Assembly (NCBI GenBank): GCA_001778695.1
Contig: MFHU01000003.1
Span: forward strand, 1,521-65,520
DNA from: Candidatus Giovannonibacteria bacterium RIFCSPHIGHO2_12_FULL_44_22
GTDB taxonomy: Bacteria; Patescibacteriota; Minisyncoccia; UBA11713; 2-01-FULL-45-33
Direction: 5' to 3'
Length of the DNA stretch: 64,000 nucleotides
The notes below the pieces were generated by a model. That model made no database searches. It saw only the letters and a program-made list of their open reading frames with translations, and had not been told where the DNA came from. Position 1 is the first letter of the stretch. The number at the start of each line of letters is the position of its first letter. Shown here piece after piece: positions 5,373-59,843 of this stretch. A program made the position numbers and the translations under genes.

Positions 5373-6569
5373 TTGGCAAAAAGGATAAGATATTTTCAGA
5401 GGAGACAAAATATGTTTAAAGAAAAAACTGGGTTGTCTGCAATATCGCTTTTTTTGTGTGAAATTAAACAAATTCCTTTGTTGGGCAAAGAGGGAGAGAT
5501 CGCGGCATTCGTAGAGTTGGAAAAAGCAAAAAACGTTTTGTTTAAAAAAGCTCTTTTTCTAAAGCCCGTTCGCGAACAGATGCTCTTTGATTTAAAAAAT
5601 TTTGTTTTGGGTAAGAGCCATAATTCTCGTCCAAAAACGGATGAGGATAAAGATAATATTCGCACCGATCTTAATGCGGCTAAATCGCTCTTTAAGAAAA
5701 TTAGCGGAACTCGCAAATCTTTATGGTGGAATATTATTCAGAATTCCGGAGTTTATTTTTCTCTCTGTAAACTTGAGCGGTGGATTAGCGGTTTGAAAGA
5801 TCAAAATCTTTTTTCGGACGAGCTTGCTATGGTAACCGAAATCAGAAACCGTATAATGAAAGCTAATTTAAGGTTAGTGGTTGATATTGCCAAATCTTAT
5901 CCAGCAAATTCATCTATAGATTTTTTGGATAAAATTAACGAGGGGAACATCGGGCTCATGAAAGCCGTCAGCATGTTCAATCTCTCTCTTGGCTATAAGT
6001 TTAGCACTTACGCTGTGTGGTGGATAAAGCAGTCAATTATTCGAGCTCTAGTTGAAAAAGGCCATGTAATCAGGATTCCAGTGAATAAGGCGCAAGAGAA
6101 AAGTAAAATTTCCCGAGTTTTTCTTGCTTTGGCTCAAAGTTACGGTCGCGAGCCCACCATGGTGGAACTGGCCAAAAAACTTAAGCGGTCTCAAAAACAG
6201 ATTGCGGAAGTTCTGGCAATAGTAAAAGATCCATTTAGCTTAAATGATCCTATTGAGGATGGCGAAGGCGCGGCCGAATTCATTAATATTATAAAAGACA
6301 AAATAACACCTCCACTAGAAGACTCTACGGAAGAAAAAGAGAGAATGGAACTTGTAAACTTGGCGCTGCGCGAGCTTCCGCCACGAGAAGAAATTATTTT
6401 ACGGATGCGTTTCGGAGTCGGATGCAATTATGATCATACCTTGGAAGAAGTGGGAAAAAGTTTTCATATGTCACGTGAACGGGTCAGGCAAATAGAAAAA
6501 ACAGCAAAGAGAAAACTGAGATACCGATTACTTCGCAGAGGAATCCGTCCCAAAGCATTATTTATGTGA
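5373..6569 (+). CDS. rpoD: sigma-70 family RNA polymerase sigma factor (primary-like)
   Basis: Region 2 (LRLVVDIAKSY...NEGNIGLMKAVSMFNLSLGYKFSTYAVWWIKQSI) and region 4 (TLEEVGKSFHMSRERVRQIE) present. Atypical N-terminal 100 aa. Confidence 0.85.
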   Translation: MAKRIRYFQRRQNMFKEKTGLSAISLFLCEIKQIPLLGKEGEIAAFVELEKAKNVLFKKALFLKPVREQMLFDLKNFVLGKSHNSRPKTDEDKDNIRTDLNAAKSLFKKISGTRKSLWWNIIQNSGVYFSLCKLERWISGLKDQNLFSDELAMVTEIRNRIMKANLRLVVDIAKSYPANSSIDFLDKINEGNIGLMKAVSMFNLSLGYKFSTYAVWWIKQSIIRALVEKGHVIRIPVNKAQEKSKISRVFLALAQSYGREPTMVELAKKLKRSQKQIAEVLAIVKDPFSLNDPIEDGEGAAEFINIIKDKITPPLEDSTEEKERMELVNLALRELPPREEIILRMRFGVGCNYDHTLEEVGKSFHMSRERVRQIEKTAKRKLRYRLLRRGIRPKALFM

Positions 6570-6731: not shown

Positions 6732-6782
6732 CCCGCCTAGACTCCCGTCTAGACTCGACGAGGCTGACGGCGAGGCCGGCCG
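6732..6782. repeat. GC-rich repeat CCCGCCTAGACTC (duplicated) ...CGAGGCTGACGGCGAGGCCGGCC at the clpP 3' end
   Basis: Shares a 13-mer and the downstream CGAGGCTGNCGG with gpmI 4567..4599. Contains the internal tandem CTAGACTC x2 and a GGCCGGCC palindrome. Supplies the clpP C-terminal tail and stop region. Confidence 0.6.
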
Positions 6783-7503: not shown

Positions 7504-7788
7504 TCAATCTTCATTATCGCCGATCTCAACAAAGAAGCTTCCATCATGAGTTCGGCTAAGAAAAATCGCCTGTCCACTTTCTGTTTTAAGAATCAAGGTT
7601 CCCGGATTACGCCGAGAGAAGAAACTTTCGACCAACAAGGGCGTATTTTCTCCGTCTGTTTTTCGGCCCTCCGCTAAATGGTTTCTGACCTGGCCCTCAA
7701 CAACTCGTCCAATCATTTTTCTCATTATCTTTCTCCTCCTTCCTTCGCAAAATTTTATAAAAATCTCTAATGAACTCAGCTCGTCCAC
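7504..7788 (-). CDS. hypothetical protein
   Basis: ORF of 94 aa, or about 73 aa from the internal [11 protein letters not shown] start. No domain recognised. Confidence 0.3.
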
Positions 7789-11095: not shown

Positions 11096-11172
11096 CTAGC
11101 CCCCTCTTACATTAAGAGGGGGAATTTTCTCCCCCTTAGAGTAAGGGGGATTAAGGGGGTTACTCCCCCGCG
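11096..11172. repeat. three consecutive G5/C5-stem hairpins spanning the nusA stop codon
   Basis: CCCCCTCTTA-CAT-TAAGAGGGGG; TCCCCCTTA-GAG-TAAGGGGGA; GGGGG-TTACT-CCCCC. No adjacent T-tract. Candidate REP-like element or unconventional terminator. Confidence 0.5.
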
Positions 11173-12443
11173 ATTCCTTCTCCTGAAACTTCGCCTTCGC
11201 TGGTCGCTTCGGCGACGGTTTCGCCAGTGCGCGAGCGGATGTCAATTTTATATCCGGTGAGTTTAGCGGCCAAGCGGACATTCTGCCCGCCTTTGCCGAT
11301 TGCCAGAGAAAGCTGATCTTCGGCCACGGTAACTTTAGCGTGTTTGATATCTTCGTCAATTTCCACTTCCAGCGCTTTGGCCGGAGAAATCGCGGATGAA
11401 ATAAATCTTTCCTTGTCTTCCGACCATGGGATGATGTCTATTTTTTCTCCGCCCAATTCAGCGATCACGGTTGTCACGCGGACGCCTTTTTGCCCGACGC
11501 ATGAGCCGACCGGGTCAATATTTTCTTCTTTGGATGAAACAGCAATTTTGGTGCGGCTACCGGCTTCCCGGGCAACATTTTTTATCTCAACCGCGCCCGA
11601 AGCGATTTCCGGAACTTCAATTTCAAAAAGTTTTGAAACCAGCTGAGGATGCGATCTGGAAAGATAAACACCGGGACCGCGCGGCATTTTTTCCGCTTTT
11701 AAAAGCAATACTTTGATTCTTTCGCCGATTCTGTATCTTTCGCCGCGCACCTGCTCGTCGGGCGGGAGCACGCCGATGGTTCTTCCTAAATCCAAAAATA
11801 CCAGCCGGCCTTCCACTCTTTGCACTATACCGCTGATTACCTCGCCTTCTTTTTCTTTGAATTCGTCAAACACGGAATCTCTTTCGGCTTCGCGGACTCT
11901 TTGCAAAATAACCTGTTTGGCGGTCTGCGCCGCGATTCTTCCGTAATCTTCTTTGGATTCCAGCGGAAAAGTAAGCTCATCGCCGACTTTTGCGTCCTTC
12001 TTGGTTTTTTTGGCGTCGGCCAACATAATGTGCCGGTCGGAGTTGAAGCGGACTTTTCTAATTTCGCCAGCCTCGCCGATTTCGCTTTCTCCGCCCAAAG
12101 CTTCCCGAGCCGCCTCTTTTACAGTCCATTTTTCTGTTTCCCCGCCCAAACCTGCGGATTGTGGCGGGCTCGCCTGAATGCCTTGGCTTTCGGCGAGTTC
12201 CACGGCGATTTCTTCTTCGGATTTAATCATAGATTCGTCCACAACAAGCTTTACCTGCCAAAATTCTGCTTTGCCTGTCGCGATATCAAATTTGGCGCGG
12301 ATTAACTGCGTTTTTTTGCCGTAATCTCTTTTATAAGCGGCGGCCAAAGCCATATCAATCGTCTCCAGAATTTTTTCCTTGGAGATGCCTTTTTCGGAGG
12401 CCAACTGGTCCAACGCCGCGTTGAAATTTTTTATGTCTAACAT
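11160..12443 (-). CDS. nusA: transcription termination/antitermination factor NusA
   Basis: 427 aa with N-terminal domain, S1 (GEVISGIVQRVEG) and two KH domains (KIDIIPWSED..., AIGKGGQNVRLAAKLTGYKIDI). Confidence 0.92.
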   Translation of the reverse strand: MLDIKNFNAALDQLASEKGISKEKILETIDMALAAAYKRDYGKKTQLIRAKFDIATGKAEFWQVKLVVDESMIKSEEEIAVELAESQGIQASPPQSAGLGGETEKWTVKEAAREALGGESEIGEAGEIRKVRFNSDRHIMLADAKKTKKDAKVGDELTFPLESKEDYGRIAAQTAKQVILQRVREAERDSVFDEFKEKEGEVISGIVQRVEGRLVFLDLGRTIGVLPPDEQVRGERYRIGERIKVLLLKAEKMPRGPGVYLSRSHPQLVSKLFEIEVPEIASGAVEIKNVAREAGSRTKIAVSSKEENIDPVGSCVGQKGVRVTTVIAELGGEKIDIIPWSEDKERFISSAISPAKALEVEIDEDIKHAKVTVAEDQLSLAIGKGGQNVRLAAKLTGYKIDIRSRTGETVAEATSEGEVSGEGIAGE

Positions 12444-27399: not shown

Positions 27400-29459
27400 G
27401 ATTCTGTCATCAGCATAGTCCTGTTAAATTTTTGCCAGACGGTTTCGGTGATGAATGGCATGAAGGGGTGCAAAAGTTTTAAAGATTCTTTTAAGGCGCG
27501 CGCCAAAACTTCCGGGTTTGGATTTTTTTTGGATTCCTCCAGATAAATATCGCAAAAATCGTGCCAGAAAAATTCGTAAAGAATATGGAGCGCTTTCCCG
27601 AAATCGTATTTTTCTATAAGTTTATTAACTTGTTTTTGCGTTTTTCGGAGCCTTACAATAATTTTTTTGTCAGCTACAGTTTTCCCGCCCAGGAAGAAGT
27701 CCGACTTCTTTTGGGATCCGAAGTCGGACTTCGAGGATGGTGGACATTGCCCTAAAACAAATCTCGCAGCGTTCCAAATTTTGTTGCAAAACTTTTTTCC
27801 GGCCATCACGTGTTCTTCAGACCATTTTATATCTTGCCCGCCCATGGCTTGCCAGATAAGCCCGAAACGCGTCGCGTCGGCGCCGTATTTATTTATCAGA
27901 TCCATCGGGTCAATTCCCGTGCCTAAAGATTTGGACATTCTCTCTCCGGATTTTGCTAAAATTGTGGCATGAATGATCACATCAGAAAAAGGCACATAGC
28001 CCAAAAATTCTTCGGATGAAAAAACCATCCGTGCCACCCAAAGATTGATGATATCGCGCGCGGTGGAAAGAACCTGCGTCGGATAATAATTTTTTAAATC
28101 TGCGGAATTTTCTGGCCATCCCAAAATCGCGAACGGCCAAAGGGCGGAAGAAAACCAGGTGTCCAAAACATCGTCAACTCCTTCAATCGGAATTTTGTGC
28201 CCCCACCAGATTTGGCGGGAAATGCACCAATCTCTGACATTTTTTAACCAATCAAAATAAATTTTTTCCCAGCGCTTGGGATGAAATTTTATTTTGCCCT
28301 TTTTGACATCTTGAATCGCTAGCTTGGCGAGCTCTTCCATTTTTAAAAACCATTGTTTACTTCTTAAGGGCTCAATGGCTGTGCCACATCGATAACATTT
28401 GGCTACATTATGCGAATAATCTTCTATTTTTTCTATCAGGCCGAGCTTTTCTAATTTTTTCACAACCTTTTCCCGGGCTTCCAAAATTTTAAGCCCATCA
28501 AATTCTGCGCCGGCTTCTTTTGTCATTCGCCCCTTTTCATTAATAACTTGGATGACAGGCAGTTTGTGGGTAATTGCGATTTGTTCGTCTAGCATATCGT
28601 GCGCGGGAGTAATTTTCACAGCGCCAGTCCCGAAATCTATCTCTATTCTCCTATCGGATACAATCGGGATCTCTTTATTTTGAATTGGTAGAATAACTTT
28701 TTTGCTAATTAAGCTTTTATATTTTTTATCTTTGGGGTTTACCGCCACGGCGGTATCTCCCAGCATAGTTTCAGGTCTTGTCGTAGCAATAATGATGAAT
28801 TTATTTTTTTCTTCCGCCAACAGATATTTAATAAACCAAAGTTTCCCTTTTTCTTCATAATATTCCAATTCCAAATCGGAAAGTGACGTTTGGCATCTTA
28901 CACACCAGTTGATAACGCGCTCGCCTTGGTAAATCCAACTCTTTTTTTGGTAATGCAAAAAAGCGGTTTTCACAGCTTCTTGGTACTCCGGGTCCATAGT
29001 AAAGCGGGTTCTAGACCAATCGCAGCTTGCCCCCAGTTTTTTTAATTGGTCTAAAATGATGTTTCCGTATTTCTCTTTCCACTCCCAAACTTTTTCCAAA
29101 AATTTTTTCCGTCCCAAGTCGTGCCGGCTCACGCCTTGTTTTTTTAAATCTTTTTCAACAACATTTTGCGTGGCGATTCCGGCGTGGTCCGTCCCCGGAA
29201 TCCAAAGGACGCGGTAGCCCTCCATCCTTTTTTTACGGATTAAAATATCTTGGATGGCAGCGTTCAGTGCGTGCCCCATGTGCAATGACCCCGTAATGTT
29301 CGGTGGCGGCAAAGCGATAGTGAAAGTTTTATTTTTATTTGGATTTTCAGCCTGAGGCTGATGCGCCTCGGACGCAAAAAAACCGCTCTTTTCCCAGAGC
29401 TTATATATTTTATCTTCATGTTCTTTCGGGTTATACGGCTTATCAAAATCGGAAAGCAT
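27387..29459 (-). CDS. valS: valine--tRNA ligase (short form, 690 aa)
   Basis: PPPNITGSLHMGHA (HIGH region), KMSKS (MSKSLGTG), editing and anticodon-binding regions. Lacks the long C-terminal coiled coil. Contains the in-frame repeat at 27696..27732. Confidence 0.9.
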   Translation of the reverse strand: MLSDFDKPYNPKEHEDKIYKLWEKSGFFASEAHQPQAENPNKNKTFTIALPPPNITGSLHMGHALNAAIQDILIRKKRMEGYRVLWIPGTDHAGIATQNVVEKDLKKQGVSRHDLGRKKFLEKVWEWKEKYGNIILDQLKKLGASCDWSRTRFTMDPEYQEAVKTAFLHYQKKSWIYQGERVINWCVRCQTSLSDLELEYYEEKGKLWFIKYLLAEEKNKFIIIATTRPETMLGDTAVAVNPKDKKYKSLISKKVILPIQNKEIPIVSDRRIEIDFGTGAVKITPAHDMLDEQIAITHKLPVIQVINEKGRMTKEAGAEFDGLKILEAREKVVKKLEKLGLIEKIEDYSHNVAKCYRCGTAIEPLRSKQWFLKMEELAKLAIQDVKKGKIKFHPKRWEKIYFDWLKNVRDWCISRQIWWGHKIPIEGVDDVLDTWFSSALWPFAILGWPENSADLKNYYPTQVLSTARDIINLWVARMVFSSEEFLGYVPFSDVIIHATILAKSGERMSKSLGTGIDPMDLINKYGADATRFGLIWQAMGGQDIKWSEEHVMAGKKFCNKIWNAARFVLGQCPPSSKSDFGSQKKSDFFLGGKTVADKKIIVRLRKTQKQVNKLIEKYDFGKALHILYEFFWHDFCDIYLEESKKNPNPEVLARALKESLKLLHPFMPFITETVWQKFNRTMLMTESWIS
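27696..27732. repeat. palindromic repeat GAAGTCCGACTTC-TTTTGGGATCC-GAAGTCGGACTTC inside valS
   Basis: Two 13-mers that are exact reverse complements of each other; each is itself a mini-palindrome. In-frame (peptide SSKSDFGSQKKSDFF). Confidence 0.75.
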
Positions 29460-29471
29460 AATCTAAAATTA

Positions 29472-30509
29472 TCATAATTTTAGATTTCCGTCAGCTCTGA
29501 TAGTTTTGGGATTTTTTGAGAATTTTTTAGCTTTGAAACGATAATATCCCGCCACGGCGATCATCGCGGCATTATCGCCGCAAAGCCAGAGAGGGGAGAT
29601 ATAAAGCGAGATTTTGGGGAATGATTTTTTGATCATATTTTCCAAAGCCGAGCGGAGTTTTTTGTTTGCGGCAACGCCTCCGCCGACAACTAACGATTTT
29701 GATTTATATTTTCGCAAAGCATCGCCGGTTTTTTTAACCAAAACATCAACCACGGCTTGCTGAAATTCGTTGGCTACGGCTGATTTATCGGCGTTGGGGT
29801 TATCCCGAAGATAATAAAGAACGGCGGTTTTGAGTCCTGAAAAACTAAAATCAAAATCACTGGAATTAATCATCGGGCGAGGAAATAATCCCTTACCCGA
29901 GGTTTTCAATCTCTCCGCCAATTTTGAAATCAAAGGCCCGCCCGGGTAGCCAAGCTTCAACATTCTCGCTACTTTATCAAATGCTTCGCCGGTGGCGTCG
30001 TCTCTAGTTTCTCCCAAAATTTTATAATCTAGATGTTTTTTCATTAAAACCAATTCCGTATGCCCGCCGGAGACGATTAGGGCAATAAGCGGAAATTGAG
30101 GAGATATGCGTCGGAGCCAGCTCGCATAAATATGCCCTTCCAAATGATTTACCGGGACCAGCGGAACACGCCATTTTTTTGCCAAGTCCTTCGCAAAATT
30201 GATTCCCTCCCAAAGCGCCGGCTCCAAGCCTGGGCCCGAGGTTACGGCTATCGCGTTGAACTTAGACGTCCGACGTCCAAGTGGACGTCGGACGTCTTTC
30301 ATAACCCGCGCGAGAATTATCGGCAGATTTTTTCTGTGTTCTCTCATCGCCAAATTTGGCACTACTCCTCCGAATGGCTTATGTATTTTTATCTGCGACA
30401 AAACTTGATTGGAAAGCAAATTAAACTTAGGTGAATTTTGTTTTTCGCTTATTTCCAAAACCGCGATTGCCGTCTCATCGCAGGATGTCTCAATAGCTAG
30501 GATTTTCAT
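29472..30509 (-). CDS. tsaD: tRNA N6-adenosine threonylcarbamoyltransferase
   Basis: MKILAIETSCDETAIAVL N-terminus, His pair, AIAVTSGPGL motif. Contains the in-frame repeat at 30258..30296. Confidence 0.9.
   Translation of the reverse strand: MKILAIETSCDETAIAVLEISEKQNSPKFNLLSNQVLSQIKIHKPFGGVVPNLAMREHRKNLPIILARVMKDVRRPLGRRTSKFNAIAVTSGPGLEPALWEGINFAKDLAKKWRVPLVPVNHLEGHIYASWLRRISPQFPLIALIVSGGHTELVLMKKHLDYKILGETRDDATGEAFDKVARMLKLGYPGGPLISKLAERLKTSGKGLFPRPMINSSDFDFSFSGLKTAVLYYLRDNPNADKSAVANEFQQAVVDVLVKKTGDALRKYKSKSLVVGGGVAANKKLRSALENMIKKSFPKISLYISPLWLCGDNAAMIAVAGYYRFKAKKFSKNPKTIRADGNLKL
30258..30296. repeat. palindromic repeat ACTTAGACGTCCGACGTC-CAAGTG-GACGTCGGACGTCT inside tsaD
   Basis: GACGTCCGACGTC and its reverse complement GACGTCGGACGTC separated by 6 nt. 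Encodes the extra peptide around DVRRPLGRRTSK, next to the conserved AIAVTSGPG motif. Confidence 0.75.
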
Positions 30510-30634: not shown

Positions 30635-31294
30635 ATGGAAATTATTTACGAAGATAAAAATCTTATCGCCCTAAATAAACCGGCTGGGGCGAATTTTGAT
30701 TGGGCACTGAAGGAAAAGCCAGAACTTTTGCCCATCCATAGATTGGATAAAGACACTTCCGGGATTATTCTTTTCGCGAAGAGCGAAAAGACGCAAGAGT
30801 ATTTGAGAGAACTTTTTAAAAATCATAAAATCAAAAAAACTTACAAGGCGCTGGTTGTTGGAAATATAAAAAATAATACGGGAGTGATCGATTTAGCAAT
30901 CGGACGCTCCAAAAAAACTCCACTAAAGCGTGTGGCGATAGGAGAGCAACGCGGAAAAATTCGCGAAGCAATAACGGAGTACAAAGTGCTGAAAAGATTT
31001 AACGGACGTCCGACGTCCACTTGGACGTCGGACGTCCAAGTGGGATTCACGCTTATTGAAGCTTATCCAAAAACTGGTCGCACCCATCAAATTCGTTCGC
31101 ATTTTTCCGCGATCGGGCATCCGATAGTTTGCGACAAGCTTTATGCTGGAAAAAAGTTTATCTGCCCCGCCGGGCTTACTCGTCAATTCCTGCACGCCTA
31201 TGCCATAGAATTTAATTTACAAAACGGCTCTCGATTAAGGCTCGAGGCCGATTTGCCGGAGGATTTGAAAAAAGTTTTAGATATGTTATCTTAA
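30635..31294 (+). CDS. RluA-family pseudouridine synthase
   Basis: LIALNKPAG, HRLDKDTSGIILFAKS (catalytic Asp), KTGRTHQIRSHF. Start moved to the Met after the tRNA. Contains the in-frame repeat at 31004..31044. Confidence 0.85.
   Translation: MEIIYEDKNLIALNKPAGANFDWALKEKPELLPIHRLDKDTSGIILFAKSEKTQEYLRELFKNHKIKKTYKALVVGNIKNNTGVIDLAIGRSKKTPLKRVAIGEQRGKIREAITEYKVLKRFNGRPTSTWTSDVQVGFTLIEAYPKTGRTHQIRSHFSAIGHPIVCDKLYAGKKFICPAGLTRQFLHAYAIEFNLQNGSRLRLEADLPEDLKKVLDMLS
31004..31044. repeat. palindromic repeat GACGTCCGACGTC-CACTTG-GACGTCGGACGTC-CAAGTG inside the rluA-family gene
   Basis: Same 13-mer pair as in tsaD, plus flanking CACTTG/CAAGTG inverted hexamers. In-frame peptide GRPTSTWTSDVQ. Confidence 0.75.
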
Positions 31295-50242: not shown

Positions 50243-51148
50243 ATGAATAAAAAACTTTTAGCTTTTCTGATATTTTTGGCTTTGGGGGCTTACTTGATTT
50301 ACGGCAATTTTTTCAAGAACGCTCTGCCGGCAGTACCGGTTTACACTCCTAACAAGGTTGCGGAGCAGGCCAAAGACTTGCCCAAAAAAGAAGTTGCCGC
50401 CCCGCCACCATTAAAAGCCAAGAAAGAAGCGCCGACCGCCGAGATAATTTTGACTGCCGACGGAGTTTTCTTTCGGGCAAATCAAGAAAGAAAAAAAGCC
50501 GATTTGCCAGATCTGGCGCCAAATTCTAAACTTACAGCTTCTGCCTTGGCCAAAATCCGCGATATGTTTAAAAATCAATATTTCGCGCACGAATCGCCTG
50601 CGGGCAAAGGAGTCGGCGATTTGGCGGAAACAGAAGGTTACGATTTTATTTTAATCGGCGAAAATCTCGCCTTGGGAAATTTTGAAGGGGATAATGCGTT
50701 GGTGGATGCTTGGATGGCGAGTCCCGGACACCGCGCCAATATTTTGGGGAGCCGTTATAAAGAAATTGGCATCGCGGTGGGGCGGGGAATGTTTCCCGCC
50801 GAAGGCGGGTCCGCCTTTGGCGGAGAAATTCGGGAGACCTGGCTCGCGGTCCAGCATTTCGGGCTTCCGCTTTCGACTTGCCTCAAACCCGATGAAAATT
50901 TAAAAACCGGCATTGAATCTTTTGAAGCGCAGATTAAAAAATTAGGAGTTACTGCTTCGGCCCTTAAAGCCGAACTTGAATCCGAAAAACCGCAAAACAG
51001 AAACGAATACGAGGCCTATAACACCAAAGTTGAAGAATACAACGCTCTAGCTCAACAAATGAATTCTTTAATTGACCAGGTAAAGAGCATTATTCCTGTT
51101 TATAACCAGCAAATAAAAACATTCAACCAATGCGCGGGAATAAATTAA
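50243..51148 (+). CDS. secreted CAP/SCP/PR1-domain protein
   Basis: Signal/TM N-terminus. GENLALGNF...WMASPGHRANIL...YKEIGIAV is the CAP signature. Confidence 0.75.
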   Translation: MNKKLLAFLIFLALGAYLIYGNFFKNALPAVPVYTPNKVAEQAKDLPKKEVAAPPPLKAKKEAPTAEIILTADGVFFRANQERKKADLPDLAPNSKLTASALAKIRDMFKNQYFAHESPAGKGVGDLAETEGYDFILIGENLALGNFEGDNALVDAWMASPGHRANILGSRYKEIGIAVGRGMFPAEGGSAFGGEIRETWLAVQHFGLPLSTCLKPDENLKTGIESFEAQIKKLGVTASALKAELESEKPQNRNEYEAYNTKVEEYNALAQQMNSLIDQVKSIIPVYNQQIKTFNQCAGIN

Positions 51149-51743: not shown

Positions 51744-52319
51744 TTGAATATTATCATGAAACAGGTTCCGCGCGCAATGGTTTTGGGTCAAAAATTTTTT
51801 AATCGGACGGCGATTAAGGTGGCGCGGGAACTTTTGGGAAAATTTTTATGCCGCCGAGCCTCACTTAGACGTCGGACGTCTAAGTGCTATATGGTCACTG
51901 AAACCGAAGCTTATGTCGGGCCGGAAGATAAAGCTTCGCACGCGCACAGAGGAAAAACTTTGCGTAATACTCCTATGTTTGGCCCCGCCGGCCGGTGGTA
52001 TGTTTATTTTACTTACGGAATGCATTGGATGCTCAATATTGTAACCGGATCAGATGGTTATCCGGCGGCGGTTTTAATCCGTGCTCTTGGAAGTCCGACT
52101 TCCCCTGGAAGTATGACTTCCGTAGACGGCCCAGGGCGCGTTACTAAATTTTTAAAAATTGATAGGCGTTTTAACGATAAAAGGGCTGATAAAAAGATTG
52201 GATTATGGATAGAAAACCATGGAATTAAAATAAAAAAGCATAAAATTAAAAGTATGCCGCGCGTGGGCGTAGATTATGCCGGAAAATGGGCAAAAAAACC
52301 GCTTCGCTTTACTTTTTAG
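51744..52319 (+). CDS. mpg: DNA-3-methyladenine glycosylase (Mpg/AAG family)
   Basis: ARELLGKFL...VTETEAY...ASHAHRGKT...MFGP...VYFTYGMHWMLNIV...AVLIRAL. Carries two in-frame repeat insertions. Confidence 0.85.
   Translation: MNIIMKQVPRAMVLGQKFFNRTAIKVARELLGKFLCRRASLRRRTSKCYMVTETEAYVGPEDKASHAHRGKTLRNTPMFGPAGRWYVYFTYGMHWMLNIVTGSDGYPAAVLIRALGSPTSPGSMTSVDGPGRVTKFLKIDRRFNDKRADKKIGLWIENHGIKIKKHKIKSMPRVGVDYAGKWAKKPLRFTF
51862..51886. repeat. 25-nt perfect palindrome CACTTAGACGTC-G-GACGTCTAAGTG inside mpg
   Basis: Related to the tsaD and rluA units (GACGTC core, ACTTAG/CAAGTG flanks). Encodes RRASLRRRTSKC, inserted between the LLGKFL and VTETEAY motifs. Confidence 0.75.
52089..52121. repeat. GGAAGTCCGACTTCC-CCTG-GAAGTATGACTTCC imperfect palindromic repeat inside mpg
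   Basis: Same GAAGTCCGACTTC unit as in valS. Encodes GSPTSPGSMTSVDG, inserted after the AVLIRAL motif. Confidence 0.7.
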
Positions 52320-54732: not shown

Positions 54733-54978
54733 ATGAATAATTGGTTTTATGGTTCATATGGCCATTGGGCCAGCCCCTTTTGGGGAGGATTTGGCGTGGG
54801 ATTTTTGGCGCCGATTTTATTGGTTTTGATTCTGTGGAGTTTCTATTGGAAAACCAGAGCCTTGTGGCGCGCCGCCAAAAACGGGGACAAAGCTTGGTTT
54901 GTCGTTTTGATTTTGGTCCAATCCCTCGGTCTTCTGGACATTCTCTACCTCTACGTTTTCGGCAAAAAATCGGAGTAA
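54733..54978 (+). CDS. small two-TM membrane protein
   Basis: 81 aa with two hydrophobic helices (FGVGFLAPILLVLILWSF, WFVVLILVQSLGLLDILYLYVF). Confidence 0.4.
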   Translation: MNNWFYGSYGHWASPFWGGFGVGFLAPILLVLILWSFYWKTRALWRAAKNGDKAWFVVLILVQSLGLLDILYLYVFGKKSE

Positions 54979-55278
54979 GGGGCCTACCCCCACACCAACT
55001 TATGTTTTATGTGTATGTTCTGAAAAGCAAGAAAGATGGCGAGTTTTACATTGGCTCTACCAACGATTTACGTAGAAGGTTTAAAGAACATAATGATGGA
55101 AAGGTTTTTTCAACAAAATCTCACATACCATTTGAAATTATTTATTACGAGGCGTATAAAAAAGAGGAAGATGCTAGACGCAGAGAATCAAATCTGAAGT
55201 TGCGATCGCGAGCCTTTGCACAACTTAAGAAACGAATAGGCGCATCTTCCAAAACATAAGTTGGTGTGGGGGCCTATA
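54979..55278. mobile_element. GIY-YIG mini-element: nuclease gene flanked by about 20-bp inverted repeats, abutting the tRNA-Ala 5' end
   Basis: Left GGGGCCTA-CCCCCACACCAACTTATG; right CATAAGTTGGTGTGGGGG-CCTA. The right repeat merges into the tRNA-Ala acceptor (GGGCCTA). The left end carries a copy of GGGGCCTA, a possible target duplication. Confidence 0.45.
55002..55259 (+). CDS. GIY-YIG nuclease-family protein
   Basis: FYVYVLKSKKDGEFYIGSTNDLRRRFKEHNDG... is the classic GIY-YIG (UPF0213-like) motif. 85 aa. Confidence 0.8.
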   Translation: MFYVYVLKSKKDGEFYIGSTNDLRRRFKEHNDGKVFSTKSHIPFEIIYYEAYKKEEDARRRESNLKLRSRAFAQLKKRIGASSKT

Positions 55279-56443: not shown

Positions 56444-56479
56444 TTTTCTTTTTGGTAAAAAGTTGTATAATTTCAAAAT

Positions 56480-56552
56480 CCGCCCATAGCTCAATTGGCA
56501 GAGCAGGTCCCTCTTAAGGACAAGGTTGTAGGTTCAACTCCTACTGGGCGGA
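56480..56552 (+). tRNA. tRNA-Lys (anticodon CTT)
   Basis: CCGCCCATAGCTCAATTGGCAGAGCAGGTCCCTCTTAAGGACAAGGTTGTAGGTTCAACTCCTACTGGGCGGA. Anticodon loop CTCTTAA. C1:G72 and one anticodon-stem mismatch. Confidence 0.7.
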
Positions 56553-56560
56553 AAAATATT

Positions 56561-56648
56561 GGAGGTGTGGCTGAGTGGTTGAAGGCGCCGCTCTCGAAAA
56601 GCGGTGTCGCCGACAAGGCGACCGGAGGTTCGAATCCTCCCACCTCCG
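56561..56648 (+). tRNA. tRNA-Ser (anticodon CGA)
   Basis: Class II tRNA with long variable arm. Anticodon stem CCGCT/AGCGG, loop CTCGAAA. Acceptor GGAGGTG/CACCTCC. Confidence 0.85.
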
Positions 56649-56665
56649 AAAATAAATTAAAATAA

Positions 56666-57246: not shown

Positions 57247-57723
57247 ATGAACCAGCTGATAAACTTATTCGCTAAATACGGGTTTTATTTTTTTCTGGGG
57301 CTTTTGGCGCTGGAGGCGACCACTTTGATATGGATGTTTGTTTTGCGCAAGAATTTCAGAAAAATTTTCGGCGGCTCTCCGGCAGGCGGAGTGAATCTGG
57401 AAAAAATCCTTTTGGAACTGCGGGAAAACCAGAATATCTCGGCTGTAAATTTTGATGAGCTGAAAAAGAGAATCGAGATTTTAGAAGAAGCTTTGCCAAA
57501 AAATTTAAGAAAAATCGGGCTCGTGAGATACAATCCATTTTCCGACGCCGGCGGCGACCAAAGCTTCGCTTTAGCATTGCTTAATGAAAAAAATGACGGC
57601 TTAATAATTTCATCGCTTTACGGCCGGGAAATGAACCGCGTTTACGCCAAGCCGATTATGAACGGCGTCTCACAATATCAATTAACAGACGAGGAAAAAG
57701 AGGCGATACAAAATGCACAATGA
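57247..57723 (+). CDS. DUF4446-like membrane-anchored protein
   Basis: N-terminal TM helix. VRYNPFSDAGGDQSFALALLNEKNDGLIISSLYGREMNRVYAKP resembles the DUF4446 core. Confidence 0.5.
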   Translation: MNQLINLFAKYGFYFFLGLLALEATTLIWMFVLRKNFRKIFGGSPAGGVNLEKILLELRENQNISAVNFDELKKRIEILEEALPKNLRKIGLVRYNPFSDAGGDQSFALALLNEKNDGLIISSLYGREMNRVYAKPIMNGVSQYQLTDEEKEAIQNAQ

Positions 57724-59261
57724 AAGAAGAAACAAAAAAAATCTCGCGCCCGCCGATCGTGGTAATAATGGGCCATATTGACCATGGCAAGACCACGCTT
57801 TTGGATTACATCAGAAAATCCAGCGTCGCGGCTTCGGAAGCGGGAGGCATCACTCAGCATATTGGCGCTTATGAAGTGAAAATCCCGACGCCAGCTAACG
57901 CTGGGTCGGAACCCCGACCGCAAGCGTCGGGGATCACTTTTCTGGACACGCCGGGGCATGAAGCTTTTTCTAAAATGCGATCCCGCGGCGCGAAAGTTGC
58001 CGACATTGCTATTTTAGTTGTGGCGGCGGACGACGGAGTGAAGCCCCAAACCAAGGAAGCGTTGGAAGCAATAAAAAATGCCGCGATTCCATTTATGGTG
58101 GCGATTAATAAAATAGACAAGCCAGCGGTGGATTTGGAAAAAGTAAAAAACGAACTGGCGGAACAGCAAGTTTTCTTGGAAGGGCGGGGAGGAACGGTTC
58201 CCTGCGCCGAAATTTCGGCAAAACAAGGAATCGGAGTTGACCATCTTTTGGAAATAATTTTACTTTTGGCCGAGATGGAAGATATCACAGCCGATCCGAA
58301 AAGTTTCGCTTCCGGCTTGGTGATAGAATCGCACAGGGACCCCAAAAGAGGCGTCACCTCAACTTTGCTTATCATAAATGGCACGCTGAAAAAAGGGGAA
58401 TACGTGGCGGCCGGGGAAGCCGTGGCCAAGGTCAAGATTTTGGAAAATTTCAAAGGCGAGGCGATGGATTTGGCAGGGCCATCCCAGCCAGCGGTGGTTG
58501 TCGGCTTTGATAAAACTCCACAAGTTGGGGCGGAATTCAAAACTTTTTTTTCGCAAAAAGACGCTTTACTGGCTTCTTCGGTATCGGTAGAAAAAAACGC
58601 GCCCAAAAAACAAAATGAAGCAAAAACCGCGGAGACTCCATCAACAATTCTAGGCGTGGTTATAAAAACCGATGTTTTGGGCTCGGCTGAAGCTATTTTG
58701 CATGAAATTGAAAAACTGAAAAACGAAAAACTTGACCTTAAAATTTTGCGCGCCGGAGCCGGTGATTTGTCCGAAGACGATATTAAAATGGCAGCTTCTT
58801 CCGCCCTGCCCCTAGCTGTCGCTTTTAAAGTTGAGATTTCTGCGGCCACCCGGGAGCTGGCTCGGCGCATGGGAGTGGAGATTGCCGAATTCGAAATTAT
58901 TTATGACGTCGCTGATTTTTTGAAAAAGAAAATTGAAGCAATTTTGCCCAAGGAGGAAAATAAAATTCTTTTGGGGCGCGCCAAGATTTTAAAAATTTTT
59001 CACGCCAAAGCCGCGACTGCGCCGCGGGGGCAGATTATCGGCGGGAAAGTATCAGAGGGAGTTTTGAAAAAGGGAGCTGTTTTTGATGTTTTAAGGCGCA
59101 ATAAAAAAATCGGCGAAGGTAAAATTGAAAATCTGCAGCAGGGGAAAATCAATATCCCTGAGGTTCCGGCGGGCGGGGAATTCGGGGCGCTGGCAAATTC
59201 CAAAATTTCAATAGCCGAAGGAGATGAATTGGAAACCTTTTCCGCCAAAGGCGGAGAATAA
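57720..59261 (+). CDS. infB: translation initiation factor IF-2, minimal form lacking N-terminal domains
   Basis: G domain begins at residue 10 (PPIVVIMGHIDHGKTTLLD). DTPGHEAF, NKID, then beta-barrel and C-terminal domains. Only 513 aa. Carries a GC-rich in-frame insert at 57884..57932. Confidence 0.9.
   Translation: MKEETKKISRPPIVVIMGHIDHGKTTLLDYIRKSSVAASEAGGITQHIGAYEVKIPTPANAGSEPRPQASGITFLDTPGHEAFSKMRSRGAKVADIAILVVAADDGVKPQTKEALEAIKNAAIPFMVAINKIDKPAVDLEKVKNELAEQQVFLEGRGGTVPCAEISAKQGIGVDHLLEIILLLAEMEDITADPKSFASGLVIESHRDPKRGVTSTLLIINGTLKKGEYVAAGEAVAKVKILENFKGEAMDLAGPSQPAVVVGFDKTPQVGAEFKTFFSQKDALLASSVSVEKNAPKKQNEAKTAETPSTILGVVIKTDVLGSAEAILHEIEKLKNEKLDLKILRAGAGDLSEDDIKMAASSALPLAVAFKVEISAATRELARRMGVEIAEFEIIYDVADFLKKKIEAILPKEENKILLGRAKILKIFHAKAATAPRGQIIGGKVSEGVLKKGAVFDVLRRNKKIGEGKIENLQQGKINIPEVPAGGEFGALANSKISIAEGDELETFSAKGGE
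57884..57932. repeat. GC-rich nested palindrome inside the infB G domain
   Basis: CCCGACG-CCAGC-TAA-GCTGG-GTCGG-AACC-CCGACC-GCAAG-CGTCGGGG. Encodes KIPTPANAGSEPRPQASG, an insertion between the switch region and DTPGHEAF. Confidence 0.6.
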
Positions 59262-59600: not shown

Positions 59601-59672
59601 GGCGCCGTAGCCAAGTGGTAAGGCAAGGGACTGCAAATCCCTTATACGAGGGTTCAATTCCCTCCGGCGCCT
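59601..59672 (+). tRNA. tRNA-Cys (anticodon GCA)
   Basis: GGCGCCGTAGCCAAGTGGTAAGGCAAGGGACTGCAAATCCCTTATACGAGGGTTCAATTCCCTCCGGCGCCT. Anticodon loop CTGCAAA. U73 discriminator. Confidence 0.85.
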
Positions 59673-59683
59673 CAAAATCTTTC

Positions 59684-59765
59684 GCCGGGGTGGTGAAATT
59701 GGCAGACACACTAGCTTTAGGAGCTAGCGCCGAAAGGCATGCGGGTCCAAATCCCGCCCCCGGCA
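59684..59765 (+). tRNA. tRNA-Leu (anticodon TAG)
   Basis: Class II tRNA. Anticodon stem CTAGC/GCTAG, loop TTTAGGA. Long variable arm. Confidence 0.85.
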
Positions 59766-59772
59766 TTAGAAC

Positions 59773-59843
59773 GCGGCCATGGTTTAGTGGCAGAACATAT
59801 CCTTGCCAAGGATAGGATGGGGGTTCGATTCCCCCTGGCCGCA
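59773..59843 (+). tRNA. tRNA-Gly (anticodon GCC)
   Basis: GCGGCCATGGTTTAGTGGCAGAACATATCCTTGCCAAGGATAGGATGGGGGTTCGATTCCCCCTGGCCGCA. Anticodon loop TTGCCAA. Confidence 0.85.

What the first reader, a model, noticed from the sequence alone, without database searches (positions are those of the whole stretch)
57884..57932. Nested GC-rich palindrome inserted in the IF-2 G domain
About 49 nt of nested inverted repeats (CCCGACG...CGTCGGGG enclosing CCAGC/GCTGG and GGTCGG/CCGACC) encode an 18-aa Pro/Ala/Ser-rich loop (KIPTPANAGSEPRPQASG). The loop lies between the G2/switch region and DTPGHEAF. Other IF-2 proteins have a short loop there. Composition and architecture resemble the in-frame repeat family found in valS, tsaD, rluA and mpg. 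This suggests a second sub-family of the same phenomenon hitting another essential gene.
Basis: partly seen in the sequence, partly recalled or inferred. Interest (0 to 1): 0.6.

Follow-up and report, generated by a model that had tools for sequence, protein, structure and literature searches.

The report
Palindromic repeat element inside IF-2 gene
A 51-base GC-rich double-hairpin repeat sits in frame in a surface loop of translation initiation factor IF-2 in a Patescibacteria (CPR) genome; it belongs to a large repeat family, not described in the literature I could search, that sits the same way inside many essential genes of this group, much like the palindromic elements known in Rickettsia.

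Summary
Window 57883-57933 is a 71% GC palindromic block in a 43% GC genome. It folds far better than shuffles (z about -5). It encodes residues 55-71 of a 513-aa IF-2, between strands b2 and b3 of the G domain. The closest IF-2 relatives (82-87% identical over the full protein) have the six-residue loop DHGGKK instead, or DH-PSTGSGQV-KK in P0005.

The same DNA, identical even at synonymous sites, lies at the same place in infB of at least four other distant Patescibacteria lineages. A 28-nt core pattern found 22 species genomes, all Patescibacteria, and 21 of those hits were not in infB.

Pfam-confirmed hosts include L7/L12, YchF, RuvX, UvrA, GyrA, GyrB, DnaK, DnaE, PilB and class II RNR. All six strand and frame combinations occur, and the frame is almost always kept (55 in-frame, 3 split).

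Covariation supports two tandem hairpins with shared CCGAC/GTCGG arms, not the nested fold.

Best reading: a REP/RPE-like selfish palindromic element that is translated through as a disordered loop. The infB subtype occurs only in infB, which suggests one origin and spread by recombination. How it moves is unknown. It is a new member of a known kind, of moderate interest.

The parts
57720..59261 (+). infB, a short (513 aa) Patescibacteria-type IF-2 and the host gene of the insertion
   Evidence: ORF. Homologues named IF-2 from Candidatus Giovannonibacteria, with Pfam GTP_EFTU and IF-2 domains. Same DUF4446-infB-rbfA gene order as in relatives.
57883..57933 (+). Full copy of the double-hairpin palindromic element (51 nt, 71% GC)
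   Evidence: Family covariance model R1 scores 62.9 bits, E 3e-11, and this is the only strong hit in the window. Aligned with 27 other copies in A1.
57883..57911 (+). Hairpin A: arm TCCCGAC, inner stem CCAGC-TAAC-GCTGG, arm GTCGGAA (one arm position mutated, GGA to GAA, Gly to Glu)
   Evidence: Arm1:arm2 pairs covary across the family (pair 1-35: CG 15, UA 10; pair 2-34: CG 16, UA 11). The inner stem covaries too. Compensatory variants CCAGC/GCTGG and CCAGAT/ATCTGG occur among infB copies.
57912..57932 (+). Hairpin B: CCCCGAC-C[GCAA]G-c-GTCGGGG, a 7-bp stem plus a C-G pair closing a GCAA loop, with one bulged C
   Evidence: RNA fold. All pairs are kept in 28 copies, but these columns were fixed by the search pattern. 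The loop varies widely in the broader family.
57882..57932 (+). The 17 codons encoded by the element (I55-G71: IPTPANAGSEPRPQASG), which replace the native turn DHGGK
   Evidence: Comparison with L003 (P0002) DNA and protein. In the AF2 model residues 56-69 are coil between b2 (49-55) and b3 (70-76), with block pLDDT of 76 and 60.
30264..30301 (.). Related single hairpin GACGTCCGACGTCCAAGTGGACGTCGGACGTC inside tsaD
   Evidence: Repeat family D2. R1 weak hit, 9.6 bits. TsaD by Pfam.
31004..31055 (.). Related hairpin, one full unit plus a partial second unit, inside an RluA-type pseudouridine synthase gene
   Evidence: R1 scores 13.1 bits, E 0.59. PseudoU_synth_2 by Pfam.
27687..27736 (.). Related hairpin GAAGTCCGACTTC...GAAGTCGGACTTC inside a class I aminoacyl-tRNA synthetase gene
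   Evidence: tRNA-synt_1 by Pfam.
51864..51884 (.). Palindrome CTTAGACGTCGGACGTCTAAG inside mpg, absent from the closest relative
   Evidence: Pur_DNA_glyco by Pfam.
52089..52121 (.). Second mpg insertion, GGAAGTCCGACTTCC CCT GGAAGTATGACTTCC (+9 aa), absent from the closest relative
   Evidence: Alignment with L003 mpg. Coordinates.

Best explanation
The palindrome is one copy of a dispersed family of small repeat elements specific to Patescibacteria. Each element is 36-57 nt and GC-rich. It consists of two hairpins in tandem whose four arms share the core CCGAC/GTCGG. It behaves like REP or Rickettsia-palindromic-element selfish DNA.

Copies lie between genes and also inside genes. Inside genes, the copies that persist keep the reading frame and sit in permissive surface loops or linkers. 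The arms cannot encode a stop codon in any frame.

In this IF-2 the element is transcribed and translated through. It yields a 17-residue Pro/Thr/Ala/Gly/Ser/Arg-rich disordered extension of the b2-b3 hairpin tip, between switch I and DTPGH.

The window's lineage gained it after splitting from its closest sampled relatives. All infB copies share a private subtype of hairpin A and the same replacement of the native turn. The infB copies therefore most likely descend from one ancient insertion. That allele probably moved between lineages by short-patch homologous recombination across the highly conserved flanks, rather than by repeated transposition.

What is shown: repeat-family membership, in-frame status, patchy distribution, recent gain, hairpin covariation.
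What is inferred: selfish or neutral nature, translation, spread by recombination.
What is unknown: the mobilising enzyme.
For: 1. Same DNA at the same infB site. Five distant lineages (IF-2 about 48-53% identical to the window; locus GC 0.39-0.61) carry the same element with identical codons at synonymous sites. The variable part of hairpin A changes in a compensatory way.
2. Recent gain. The closest relatives lack it. The window's flanks match relative L003 at 85-100% right up to the boundaries.
3. Dispersal across genes. The 28-nt core found 22 hits in species genomes, all Patescibacteria, and 21 were outside infB. The Pfam-confirmed hosts among these are L7/L12, YchF, RuvX, GT1, an S11 peptidase, class II RNR and a PhnB-like protein. 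Some of the 22 are intergenic, and NusA (L022) was recognised by eye only. Hosts there include UvrA (twice), PilB, GyrA, GyrB, DnaK, DnaE, a PIF1 helicase and an acyl-CoA synthetase.
4. DNA-level element. All six orientation and frame combinations are used.
5. Frame kept. 55 sites lie in one continuous open frame, against 3 with long open frames in different frames on the two sides. 114 of 157 copies are stop-free in at least five frames.
6. Hairpin covariation between arm 1 and arm 2.
7. Several copies per locus occur, including a tandem array.
8. The AF2 model shows the insert as coil between b2 and b3.
9. The infB-type hairpin A occurs only in infB: 8 of 8 matches (7 independent, since L002 duplicates L001), and none of about 150 other copies.
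10. The window genome carries further small CCGAC-type palindromic insertions that its closest relative lacks.
Against: - No transposase or other mobilising gene was found beside the copies. Paired copies in L120 and L049 merely flank rpsO-NYN-pnp.
- No target-site duplication is visible.
- Only one full copy lies in the 64 kb window. Multi-copy status in this particular genome is therefore not shown.
- Translation of the insert is inferred from frame conservation, not observed.
- Conservation of hairpin B in alignment A1 is partly imposed by the search pattern.
- No foreign flanking tract is visible in the window. Recombination would need end points inside about 12 nt of universally conserved sequence, which cannot be told apart from a site-specific insertion.
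- Hairpin covariation and the GNRA-type loop would also fit a selected RNA or ssDNA function.
Confidence: 0.7

Rival explanations
1. A selected RNA-level or ssDNA-level functional module rather than selfish DNA. The hairpins would serve as binding or processing sites, for example for an RNase or an RNA-binding protein, as transcription pause or termination signals, or as mRNA stabilisers. They would be kept inside infB because they regulate it.
For: Strong, conserved structure with compensatory changes. Hairpin B has a GCAA tetraloop closed by C-G. Hairpin B followed by ATCACTTTTC was flagged as terminator-like. Intergenic copies flank the rpsO-NYN-pnp locus in two loci, and REPs elsewhere are thought to act as RNA elements (PMC3733652).
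Against: Copies occur in both orientations relative to the host gene (37 same, 24 opposite) and in unrelated genes and positions. The B loop is highly variable across the family. The terminator-like count equals the chance expectation (1 found, 1.0 expected), and a terminator 200 nt into an essential gene would be harmful. There is no Rfam match. The closest relatives do without it.
Confidence: 0.12
2. The window's infB copy arose by a fresh transposition of the element into this site, independently in each lineage. The b2-b3 turn would then be either a preferred target or the only tolerated site.
For: The family is clearly dispersed across genes. No foreign flanking DNA accompanies the insert in the window. 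The same turn carries other, unrelated inserts in relatives, such as HPSTGSGQV in P0005 and KCDASHEHKTRK in others, so the site is permissive. rplL shows at least three different subtypes and both orientations at its hinge.
Against: All infB copies share the same orientation, the same frame, the same replacement of the native DHGGK turn and a hairpin-A subtype found in no other gene. Independent hits would be expected to differ in subtype, frame and orientation, and to leave the native turn residues flanking the insert.
Confidence: 0.2
3. An adaptive, protein-level IF-2 loop. The peptide IPTPxxxGSGPRPQASG would be selected for a function, such as a ribosome or partner contact, and the palindrome would be a by-product.
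For: The peptide is well conserved among distant IF-2s. Many Patescibacteria IF-2s have extended loops at this position.
Against: Codon choice is conserved at synonymous sites across genomes with 39-61% GC. That is not expected from protein-level selection. The same DNA is read in other frames and on the other strand in other proteins, giving PTLAVGAPTASVG, SPDRKRRG and similar peptides. The residues that vary are those in the hairpin loop. The model gives a low-confidence coil. The closest relatives lack it.
Confidence: 0.05
4. An intervening sequence that is not part of the mature product. It would be removed from the RNA like an intron, or skipped by the ribosome, as in T4 gene 60 or the yeast mitochondrial 'byp' hairpin elements.
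For: The element is a compact GC-rich hairpin in an AT-richer gene, of a size similar to bypass elements (this comparison is from my own knowledge). Three copies sit in the D-loop, anticodon loop and T-loop of a tRNA-like sequence in L016. Removing them restores a tRNA-like fold.
Against: Removal would free the elements from any frame constraint. Yet 55 sites lie in one continuous frame against 3 split, and every Pfam-checked host that has domains on both sides of the insert keeps them in the same frame. The L016 tRNA-like sequence has a degenerate anticodon stem and lies next to an intact tRNA-Val(TAC), so it looks like a decaying duplicate.
Confidence: 0.03

Closest known systems
Rickettsia palindromic elements (RPEs; Ogata et al. 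2000, as summarised in PMC10969869 and PMC3733652)
   Same: Repeated palindromic DNA found in frame inside many unrelated, functional, often essential genes of a reduced-genome bacterium. It is read in different frames, sits at positions compatible with the protein fold, and has no transposase of its own.
   Different: RPEs are about 100-150 bp and restricted to Rickettsia. This element is 36-57 nt, has two tandem hairpins with shared CCGAC arms, and is spread across several Patescibacteria lineages. Sequence relatedness to RPEs was not tested, and the sizes argue against it.
Intragenic REPs of the GTAG- and CGTC-tagged superfamilies (Di Nocera et al. 2013, PMC3733652)
   Same: Small GC-rich stem-loops that are mostly intergenic but also occur in frame in genes, notably replication and repair genes such as uvrA. 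They often occur as dimers encoding 20-30 aa. The CGTC type has no dedicated transposase.
   Different: Tagged REPs have an unpaired GTAG or CGTC head, 8-9 bp stems that begin with A-T pairs, a CCA tail, and mostly head-to-head dimers. Here CGTC lies inside the stem, the stems are G-C from the start, and the two hairpins are head-to-tail. Patescibacteria were not among the phyla surveyed.
Stem-loop TIGR arrays (tigRNAs) embedded in tas genes of CPR bacteria (bioRxiv 10.64898/2026.09.09.750476)
   Same: Palindromic stem-loop units in CPR genomes that can lie inside a coding sequence without breaking the frame, mapping to disordered protein regions.
   Different: tigRNAs carry box C and box D motifs, flank spacer pairs, and lie in or next to tas genes. 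None of 157 copies here has a strict box C, and the hosts are housekeeping genes.
Palindrome-associated elements derived from IS200/IS605, and REP/RAYT systems
   Same: Hairpins with near-identical stems in the same orientation resemble the left-end and right-end hairpins recognised by HUH (Y1) transposases on single-stranded DNA. Insertion leaves no target duplication. This comparison rests on my own knowledge.
   Different: No Y1 transposase or RAYT gene was seen near any copy examined. No conserved cleavage tetranucleotide was identified. This is a mechanistic analogy only.

Membership tests
RPE-like / intragenic REP-like selfish palindromic repeats (the general kind) | The same short palindromic sequence recurs at many unrelated genomic positions | tested here: met
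   22 species genomes and at least 120 metagenome contigs, with up to 3 copies per 8 kb locus. In the window itself there is only one full copy in 64 kb.
RPE-like / intragenic REP-like selfish palindromic repeats (the general kind) | Copies inside genes keep the reading frame and are read in different frames and orientations in unrelated proteins | tested here: met
   55 in-frame against 3 split. All six frame and orientation classes occur. Hosts confirmed by Pfam.
RPE-like / intragenic REP-like selfish palindromic repeats (the general kind) | Presence or absence polymorphism between close relatives, showing insertion rather than ancestral sequence | tested here: met
   IF-2 relatives at 82-87% identity lack it. 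The mpg insertions are also absent from L003.
RPE-like / intragenic REP-like selfish palindromic repeats (the general kind) | Insert lies in a surface loop or linker compatible with the protein fold | tested here: met
   AF2 shows coil at residues 56-69 between b2 and b3. Other hosts carry it in the L7/L12 hinge and in inter-domain positions. Position relative to the ribosome was not examined.
Rickettsia RPE families proper | Sequence similarity to the RPE consensus sequences, length about 100-150 bp, Rickettsia host | tested here: not met
   Length is 36-57 nt and the host is Patescibacteria. Direct sequence comparison with RPE consensus sequences was not done.
CGTC-tagged REPs (PMC3733652) | Unpaired terminal CGTC tag, 8-9 bp stem starting with A-T pairs, 4-5 nt loop, CCA tail, head-to-head dimers | tested here: not met
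   CGTC is base-paired inside the arm. The stems are CCCGAC/GTCGGG. The two hairpins are head-to-tail. Criteria taken.
MITE | Terminal inverted repeats of 15-30 bp, target-site duplication, 70-300 bp | tested here: not met
   36-57 nt, and no flanking direct repeats were seen in 28 aligned copies.
Stem-loop tigRNA (TIGR-Tas) | Box C (RUGAUGA) and box D (CUGA) motifs flanking the spacers | tested here: not met
   0 of 157 copies have a strict box C. Only 1 of 157 has TGATGA together with CTGA on the same strand.
Stem-loop tigRNA (TIGR-Tas) | Location in or next to a tas (Nop-domain) gene | not tested
   Hosts are housekeeping genes. The window was not scanned systematically for Nop-domain proteins.
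REP/RAYT or IS200/IS605-derived element | Association with a Y1 (HUH) transposase gene flanked by the repeats | tested here: inconclusive
   Only a few neighbourhoods were checked. None held a transposase: S15, an NYN protein, PNPase and XerC-like integrase genes were found. No whole-genome co-occurrence analysis was possible.
Programmed translational bypass or intron-like element | The element is not constrained to be open and in frame | tested here: not met
   Strong frame preservation. The infB insert is open and in frame in all 8 independent copies.

The most novel reading that the evidence does not exclude
The CCGAC double hairpins may be substrates of an unrecognised hairpin-specific mobilisation or recombination system peculiar to Patescibacteria. 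That system might act on single-stranded DNA or on structured RNA. It would place elements into the loops of existing stem-loops and into flexible coding regions, and it would actively maintain their palindromic symmetry.

Three observations are compatible with this:
- a tRNA-like sequence carries three elements, one each in its D-loop, anticodon loop and T-loop;
- the arms covary;
- near-identical cores occur in genomes labelled as Paceibacteria, Kaiserbacteria, Nomurabacteria, Zambryskibacteria, Doudnabacteria and Saccharibacteria.
Probability: 0.12. Interest if true: 0.8.

Novelty: new member of a known kind. Interest (0 to 1): 0.55.

Why it matters
Patescibacteria have tiny, streamlined genomes. 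Even so, a GC-rich palindromic repeat has colonised the coding sequences of their most conserved genes: IF-2, L7/L12, DnaK, gyrase, DnaE and UvrA.

This has three consequences:
- It is a second large natural example of what was seen in Rickettsia. In reduced genomes selfish palindromes persist by hiding in frame in permissive protein loops, and they create new peptide segments there.
- It has practical effects on phylogenetic marker alignments, on gene calling and on indel-based taxonomic signatures in CPR genomes.
- The infB copy, shared by distant lineages but absent from close relatives, is a convenient marker of recombination between CPR lineages.

I found no description of this family in the literature library that I searched.

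Tried and rejected
- Rfam scan of the region: only chance-level matches with E above 3.
- Chance palindrome: rejected (z about -5; the family recurs).
- Nested fold as the family structure: the outer helix shows only C-G to U-G changes and no double changes, whereas arm1:arm2 covaries. For this particular copy the nested fold is the DNA-parameter optimum, because one arm-2 base is mutated.
- A foreign gene-conversion tract around the insert: none detected. The flanks match the close relative up to the boundary.
- Target-site duplication or a target motif: none seen in the flanks of 28 copies.
- Transposase association: paired copies 1.5-3.4 kb apart in L120 and L049 enclose rpsO, an NYN-domain gene and pnp, not a transposase. 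The L069 neighbours had no Pfam hit.
- tigRNA identity: no box C motif.
- Phage vector: only one hit in 2.9 million viral contigs.
- Intrinsic terminator: the count equals the chance expectation.
- Length modulo 3 of the element: intragenic copies are 37 of 61 in class 1 against 44 of 96 for the rest. This is suggestive but not decisive.
- tRNA with introns in L016: after the three elements are removed, the anticodon stem is still degenerate, so it reads as a decaying tRNA-Val duplicate.
- Literature searches for an existing description in CPR found none.
Full report
**The observation**

Window 57884-57932 reads CCCGACGCCAGCTAACGCTGGGTCGGAACCCCGACCGCAAGCGTCGGGG. The block is 71% GC in a window that averages about 43%.

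As RNA it folds at -32.2 kcal/mol, against -17.6 +/- 2.9 for dinucleotide shuffles (z -5.07, 0 of 200 as good). As DNA it folds at -19.0 kcal/mol (z -5.0).

It lies in frame in a 513-aa ORF at 57720-59261. That ORF is IF-2 of a Candidatus Giovannonibacteria-like member of the Patescibacteria. The encoded segment K-IPTPANAGSEPRPQASG sits between GITQHIGAYEV and ITFLDTPGH.

**It is an insertion**

The three closest relatives (P0002-P0004, 85-87% identical over the full protein) have DHGGKK or DHAGKK at this place. Of the 120 best IF-2 hits, 64 have a six-residue turn of this type.

The syntenic relative L003 (GCA_041643115.1) reads GAAGTG-GACCACGGCGGTAAAAAA-ATAACT. The window reads GAAGTG-AAA-[51 nt]-ACT at the same place. 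So 17 element-encoded codons replace the native turn DHGGK, a net gain of 12 residues.

An AlphaFold2 model built on 48 homologues (mean pLDDT 84.8) places residues 56-69 as coil between strand b2 (49-55) and strand b3 (70-76). Confidence is reduced there, with block means of 76 and 60.

**The same DNA in distant infB genes**

Ten of the 120 IF-2s carry IPTPxxxGSGPRPQASG(K). Counting the window's own lineage, they fall into at least five lineages. In each lineage the nearest neighbours, at 62-90% core identity, lack the insert.

I fetched five of these genes. Their IF-2s are about 48-53% identical to the window's, and locus GC runs from 0.39 to 0.61. The nucleotide sequence of the insert is almost invariant, synonymous positions included: ATCCCGACGCCAG...GGGTCGGGAYCCCGACCGCAAGCGTCGGGGA. 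The one variable stretch changes in a compensatory way, CCAGC/GCTGG against CCAGAT/ATCTGG.

Protein-level selection does not explain this pattern. It points to a constraint at the nucleic-acid level, to recent transfer, or to both.

**A dispersed family**

I scanned one genome for each of 185,579 species with the 28-nt core GTCGGRNNCCCGAYCGCARGCGTCGGGG. It gave 22 hits, all Patescibacteria, and only one of them lay in infB.

The other 21 include:
- the hinge of L7/L12, at the same site in about eight genomes, in both orientations;
- the C-terminal part of a NusA-like protein (recognised by eye, not confirmed by Pfam);
- YchF, RuvX, a GT1 glycosyltransferase, an S11 carboxypeptidase, class II ribonucleotide reductase and a PhnB-like protein;
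- intergenic positions.

These contigs have 30-57% GC, and the B-hairpin loops are very diverse. Hosts confirmed by Pfam include UvrA (two different sites), PilB/GspE, GyrA, GyrB, DnaK, DnaE, a PIF1-type helicase and an ADP-forming acyl-CoA synthetase.

Only one of 2.9 million viral contigs matched.

**Anatomy**

An alignment of 28 copies (A1) shows four arms that share CCGAC/GTCGG. Arm 1 and arm 2 covary: TCCCGAC/GTCGGGA, CTCCGAC/GTCGGAG and CCCCGAC/GTCGGGG. Pair 1-35 is CG in 15 copies and UA in 10. Pair 2-34 is CG in 16 and UA in 11. The inner stem of hairpin A covaries as well.

The family structure is therefore two tandem hairpins:
- A: arm, variable inner stem-loop, arm.
- B: CCCCGAC-loop-GTCGGGG. 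In the infB subtype the loop is a GCAA tetraloop closed by C-G, with one bulged C.

The window copy has one arm-2 mutation (GGA to GAA, Gly to Glu). That mutation makes the nested fold its DNA-parameter optimum, while the RNA optimum stays tandem.

Conservation of arms 3 and 4 in A1 is partly imposed by the search pattern. Arm 1 and the covarying positions of arm 2 were left free.

**Behaviour inside genes**

Of 151 sites, 55 lie in a single open frame with at least 40 open codons on each side. Only 3 have long open frames on the two sides in different frames. If frame did not matter, the split cases should outnumber the in-frame ones about two to one.

Among 61 intragenic copies, 37 have the orientation of the gene and 24 the opposite. 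All six orientation and frame classes occur. Of 157 copies, 59 are free of stop codons in all six frames and 114 in at least five.

The element is therefore a DNA-level repeat with no fixed coding sense. Where it is retained inside a gene it keeps the frame, and the simplest reading is that it is translated through.

**The window genome**

The family model R1 finds one full copy in the 64 kb window, the infB copy at 62.9 bits. It also gives weak hits of 9-13 bits to single hairpins with GTCCGAC(G)/(C)GTCGGAC arms. These lie in tsaD (30264-30301), an RluA-type gene (31004-31047) and a class I aaRS gene (27687-27736).

CCGAC...GTCGG hairpins occur 6 times in the window, against 0.58 expected.

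The mpg gene carries two small palindromic insertions, at 51864-51884 and 52089-52121. The close relative L003 lacks both. L003 has no R1 hit at all.

Such insertions have therefore accumulated in the window's lineage since it split from L003. The sequence link between the two sub-families rests only on the shared arm core.

**How the infB copy got there**

The window's flanks match L003 at 85-100% right up to the insert, and match element-bearing infB genes much less well (52-90%). No foreign tract is visible.

On the other hand, every infB copy has the same orientation, the same frame and the same replacement of the native turn. Every infB copy also has a hairpin-A subtype, CCGACGCC[AC]G...C[TC]GGGTCGG. 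That subtype appears in 8 of 8 infB matches (7 independent, because L002 duplicates L001) and in none of about 150 other copies.

This favours a single original insertion into infB. The allele would then have moved between lineages by short-patch homologous recombination, with end points in the nearly invariant flanks GCTTATGAAGTG and ACTTT. Repeated independent transposition fits less well.

I hold this sub-claim at about even odds. A site-specific insertion cannot be excluded.

**What moves the family**

This is unknown. No target duplication or target motif is apparent. Paired copies in L120 and L049 enclose rpsO, an NYN-domain gene and pnp, not a transposase.

The head-to-tail pair of hairpins with like stems recalls the end hairpins bound by HUH transposases of IS200/IS605. 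That is an analogy from my own knowledge, not a result. The compensatory changes could come from selection for the hairpin. They could also come from template-switch correction of quasi-palindromes. Both are inference.

**Comparison with known systems**

The closest known kinds are Rickettsia palindromic elements and the intragenic REPs catalogued by Di Nocera et al. (PMC3733652; review PMC10969869).

The behaviour matches: in-frame copies in unrelated, often essential genes, including replication and repair genes, with no transposase of their own.

The defining sequence features of those families are not met:
- RPEs are 100-150 bp.
- CGTC REPs have an unpaired CGTC tag, A-T pairs at the stem base, a CCA tail and head-to-head dimers.

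Stem-loop tigRNAs of TIGR-Tas systems can also sit in frame in CPR genes (bioRxiv 10.64898/2026.09.09.750476). They need box C/D motifs, and 0 of 157 copies here has a strict box C. There is no Rfam match.

Six full-text searches found no description of such elements in Patescibacteria.

**Verdict**

This is a new family, in a new phylum, of a known kind of selfish palindromic repeat. Two features are notable: how broadly it colonises core informational genes, and an infB allele shared across distant lineages. Interest is moderate. The mechanism of mobility and proof of translation remain open.

Noticed in passing
L016:2426-2662 (contig JBAYVE010000009.1): Immediately downstream of an intact tRNA-Val(TAC) lies a tRNA-like sequence carrying three double-hairpin elements, one each in its D-loop, anticodon loop and T-loop. 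Deleting the three elements restores a tRNA-like fold: acceptor stem 6 of 7 pairs, good D and T arms, but a degenerate anticodon stem. It is probably a decaying duplicate colonised by the repeat. All three insertions are in loops.
   Followed up: partly
L030:988-1062 (P0005) and L031:10151-10225 (P0043): A different 18-nt insert, non-palindromic, sits at exactly the same IF-2 b2-b3 turn in other Giovannonibacteria-like genomes. It reads CCTTCGACAGGCTCGGGACAAGTG and encodes PSTGSGQV (HHSASSGQIQ in P0043). Nine of the 120 IF-2s carry it. Other lineages have KCDASHEHKTRK or 5-aa extensions. The turn is a hot spot for insertions.
   Followed up: partly
window 50794-50824: Two tandem hairpins with shared CCGCC/GGCGG arms (CCCGCC-GAAG-GCGGG TCCGCC-TTT-GGCGGA) lie inside a CAP-domain protein ORF (50243-51148). 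The architecture matches the CCGAC element but the arm sequence differs. The surrounding 115 nt fold at -53.7 kcal/mol.
   Followed up: no
window 4565-4595 and 6740-6770: Two copies of another GC-rich motif: CCCGCCTAGACTCGGCGAGGCTGGCGG and CCCGTCTAGACTCGACGAGGCTGACGG. One lies inside the iPGM gene. The other lies just after tRNA-Val(GAC), overlapping the 3' end of the clpP ORF.
   Followed up: no
window 11983-12019: A CCGAC...GTCGG hairpin with a long T-rich loop lies inside nusA (11160-12443, minus strand), in the gap between the best NusA_N match (residues 7-86) and the S1 match (residues 198-252). It may be another in-frame insertion.
   Followed up: no
L120:4027-4081 and 5623-5677; L049:4088-4125 and 7575-7612: In two homologous loci, inverted copies of the element flank the rpsO / NYN-domain ribonuclease-like gene / pnp region. 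The position recalls the processed hairpins of the E. coli rpsO-pnp leader, so these copies might have been co-opted as RNA processing or termination signals.
   Followed up: partly
window 54741-55259; L003:9135-9401; L031:12344-12601: A small GIY-YIG domain gene lies within a few kb of the DUF4446-infB-rbfA cluster in the window and in two relatives. It is upstream of infB in the window and L003 and downstream of rbfA in L031. The window version has a roughly 85-aa N-terminal extension by ORF call. No link to the element was established.
   Followed up: no
window, whole (15 tRNA genes, e.g. 56479-56649 and 59601-59843): tRNA density is high for 64 kb, including clusters directly flanking the infB operon: Lys-Ser upstream, and Cys-Leu-Gly downstream of rbfA.
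   Followed up: no
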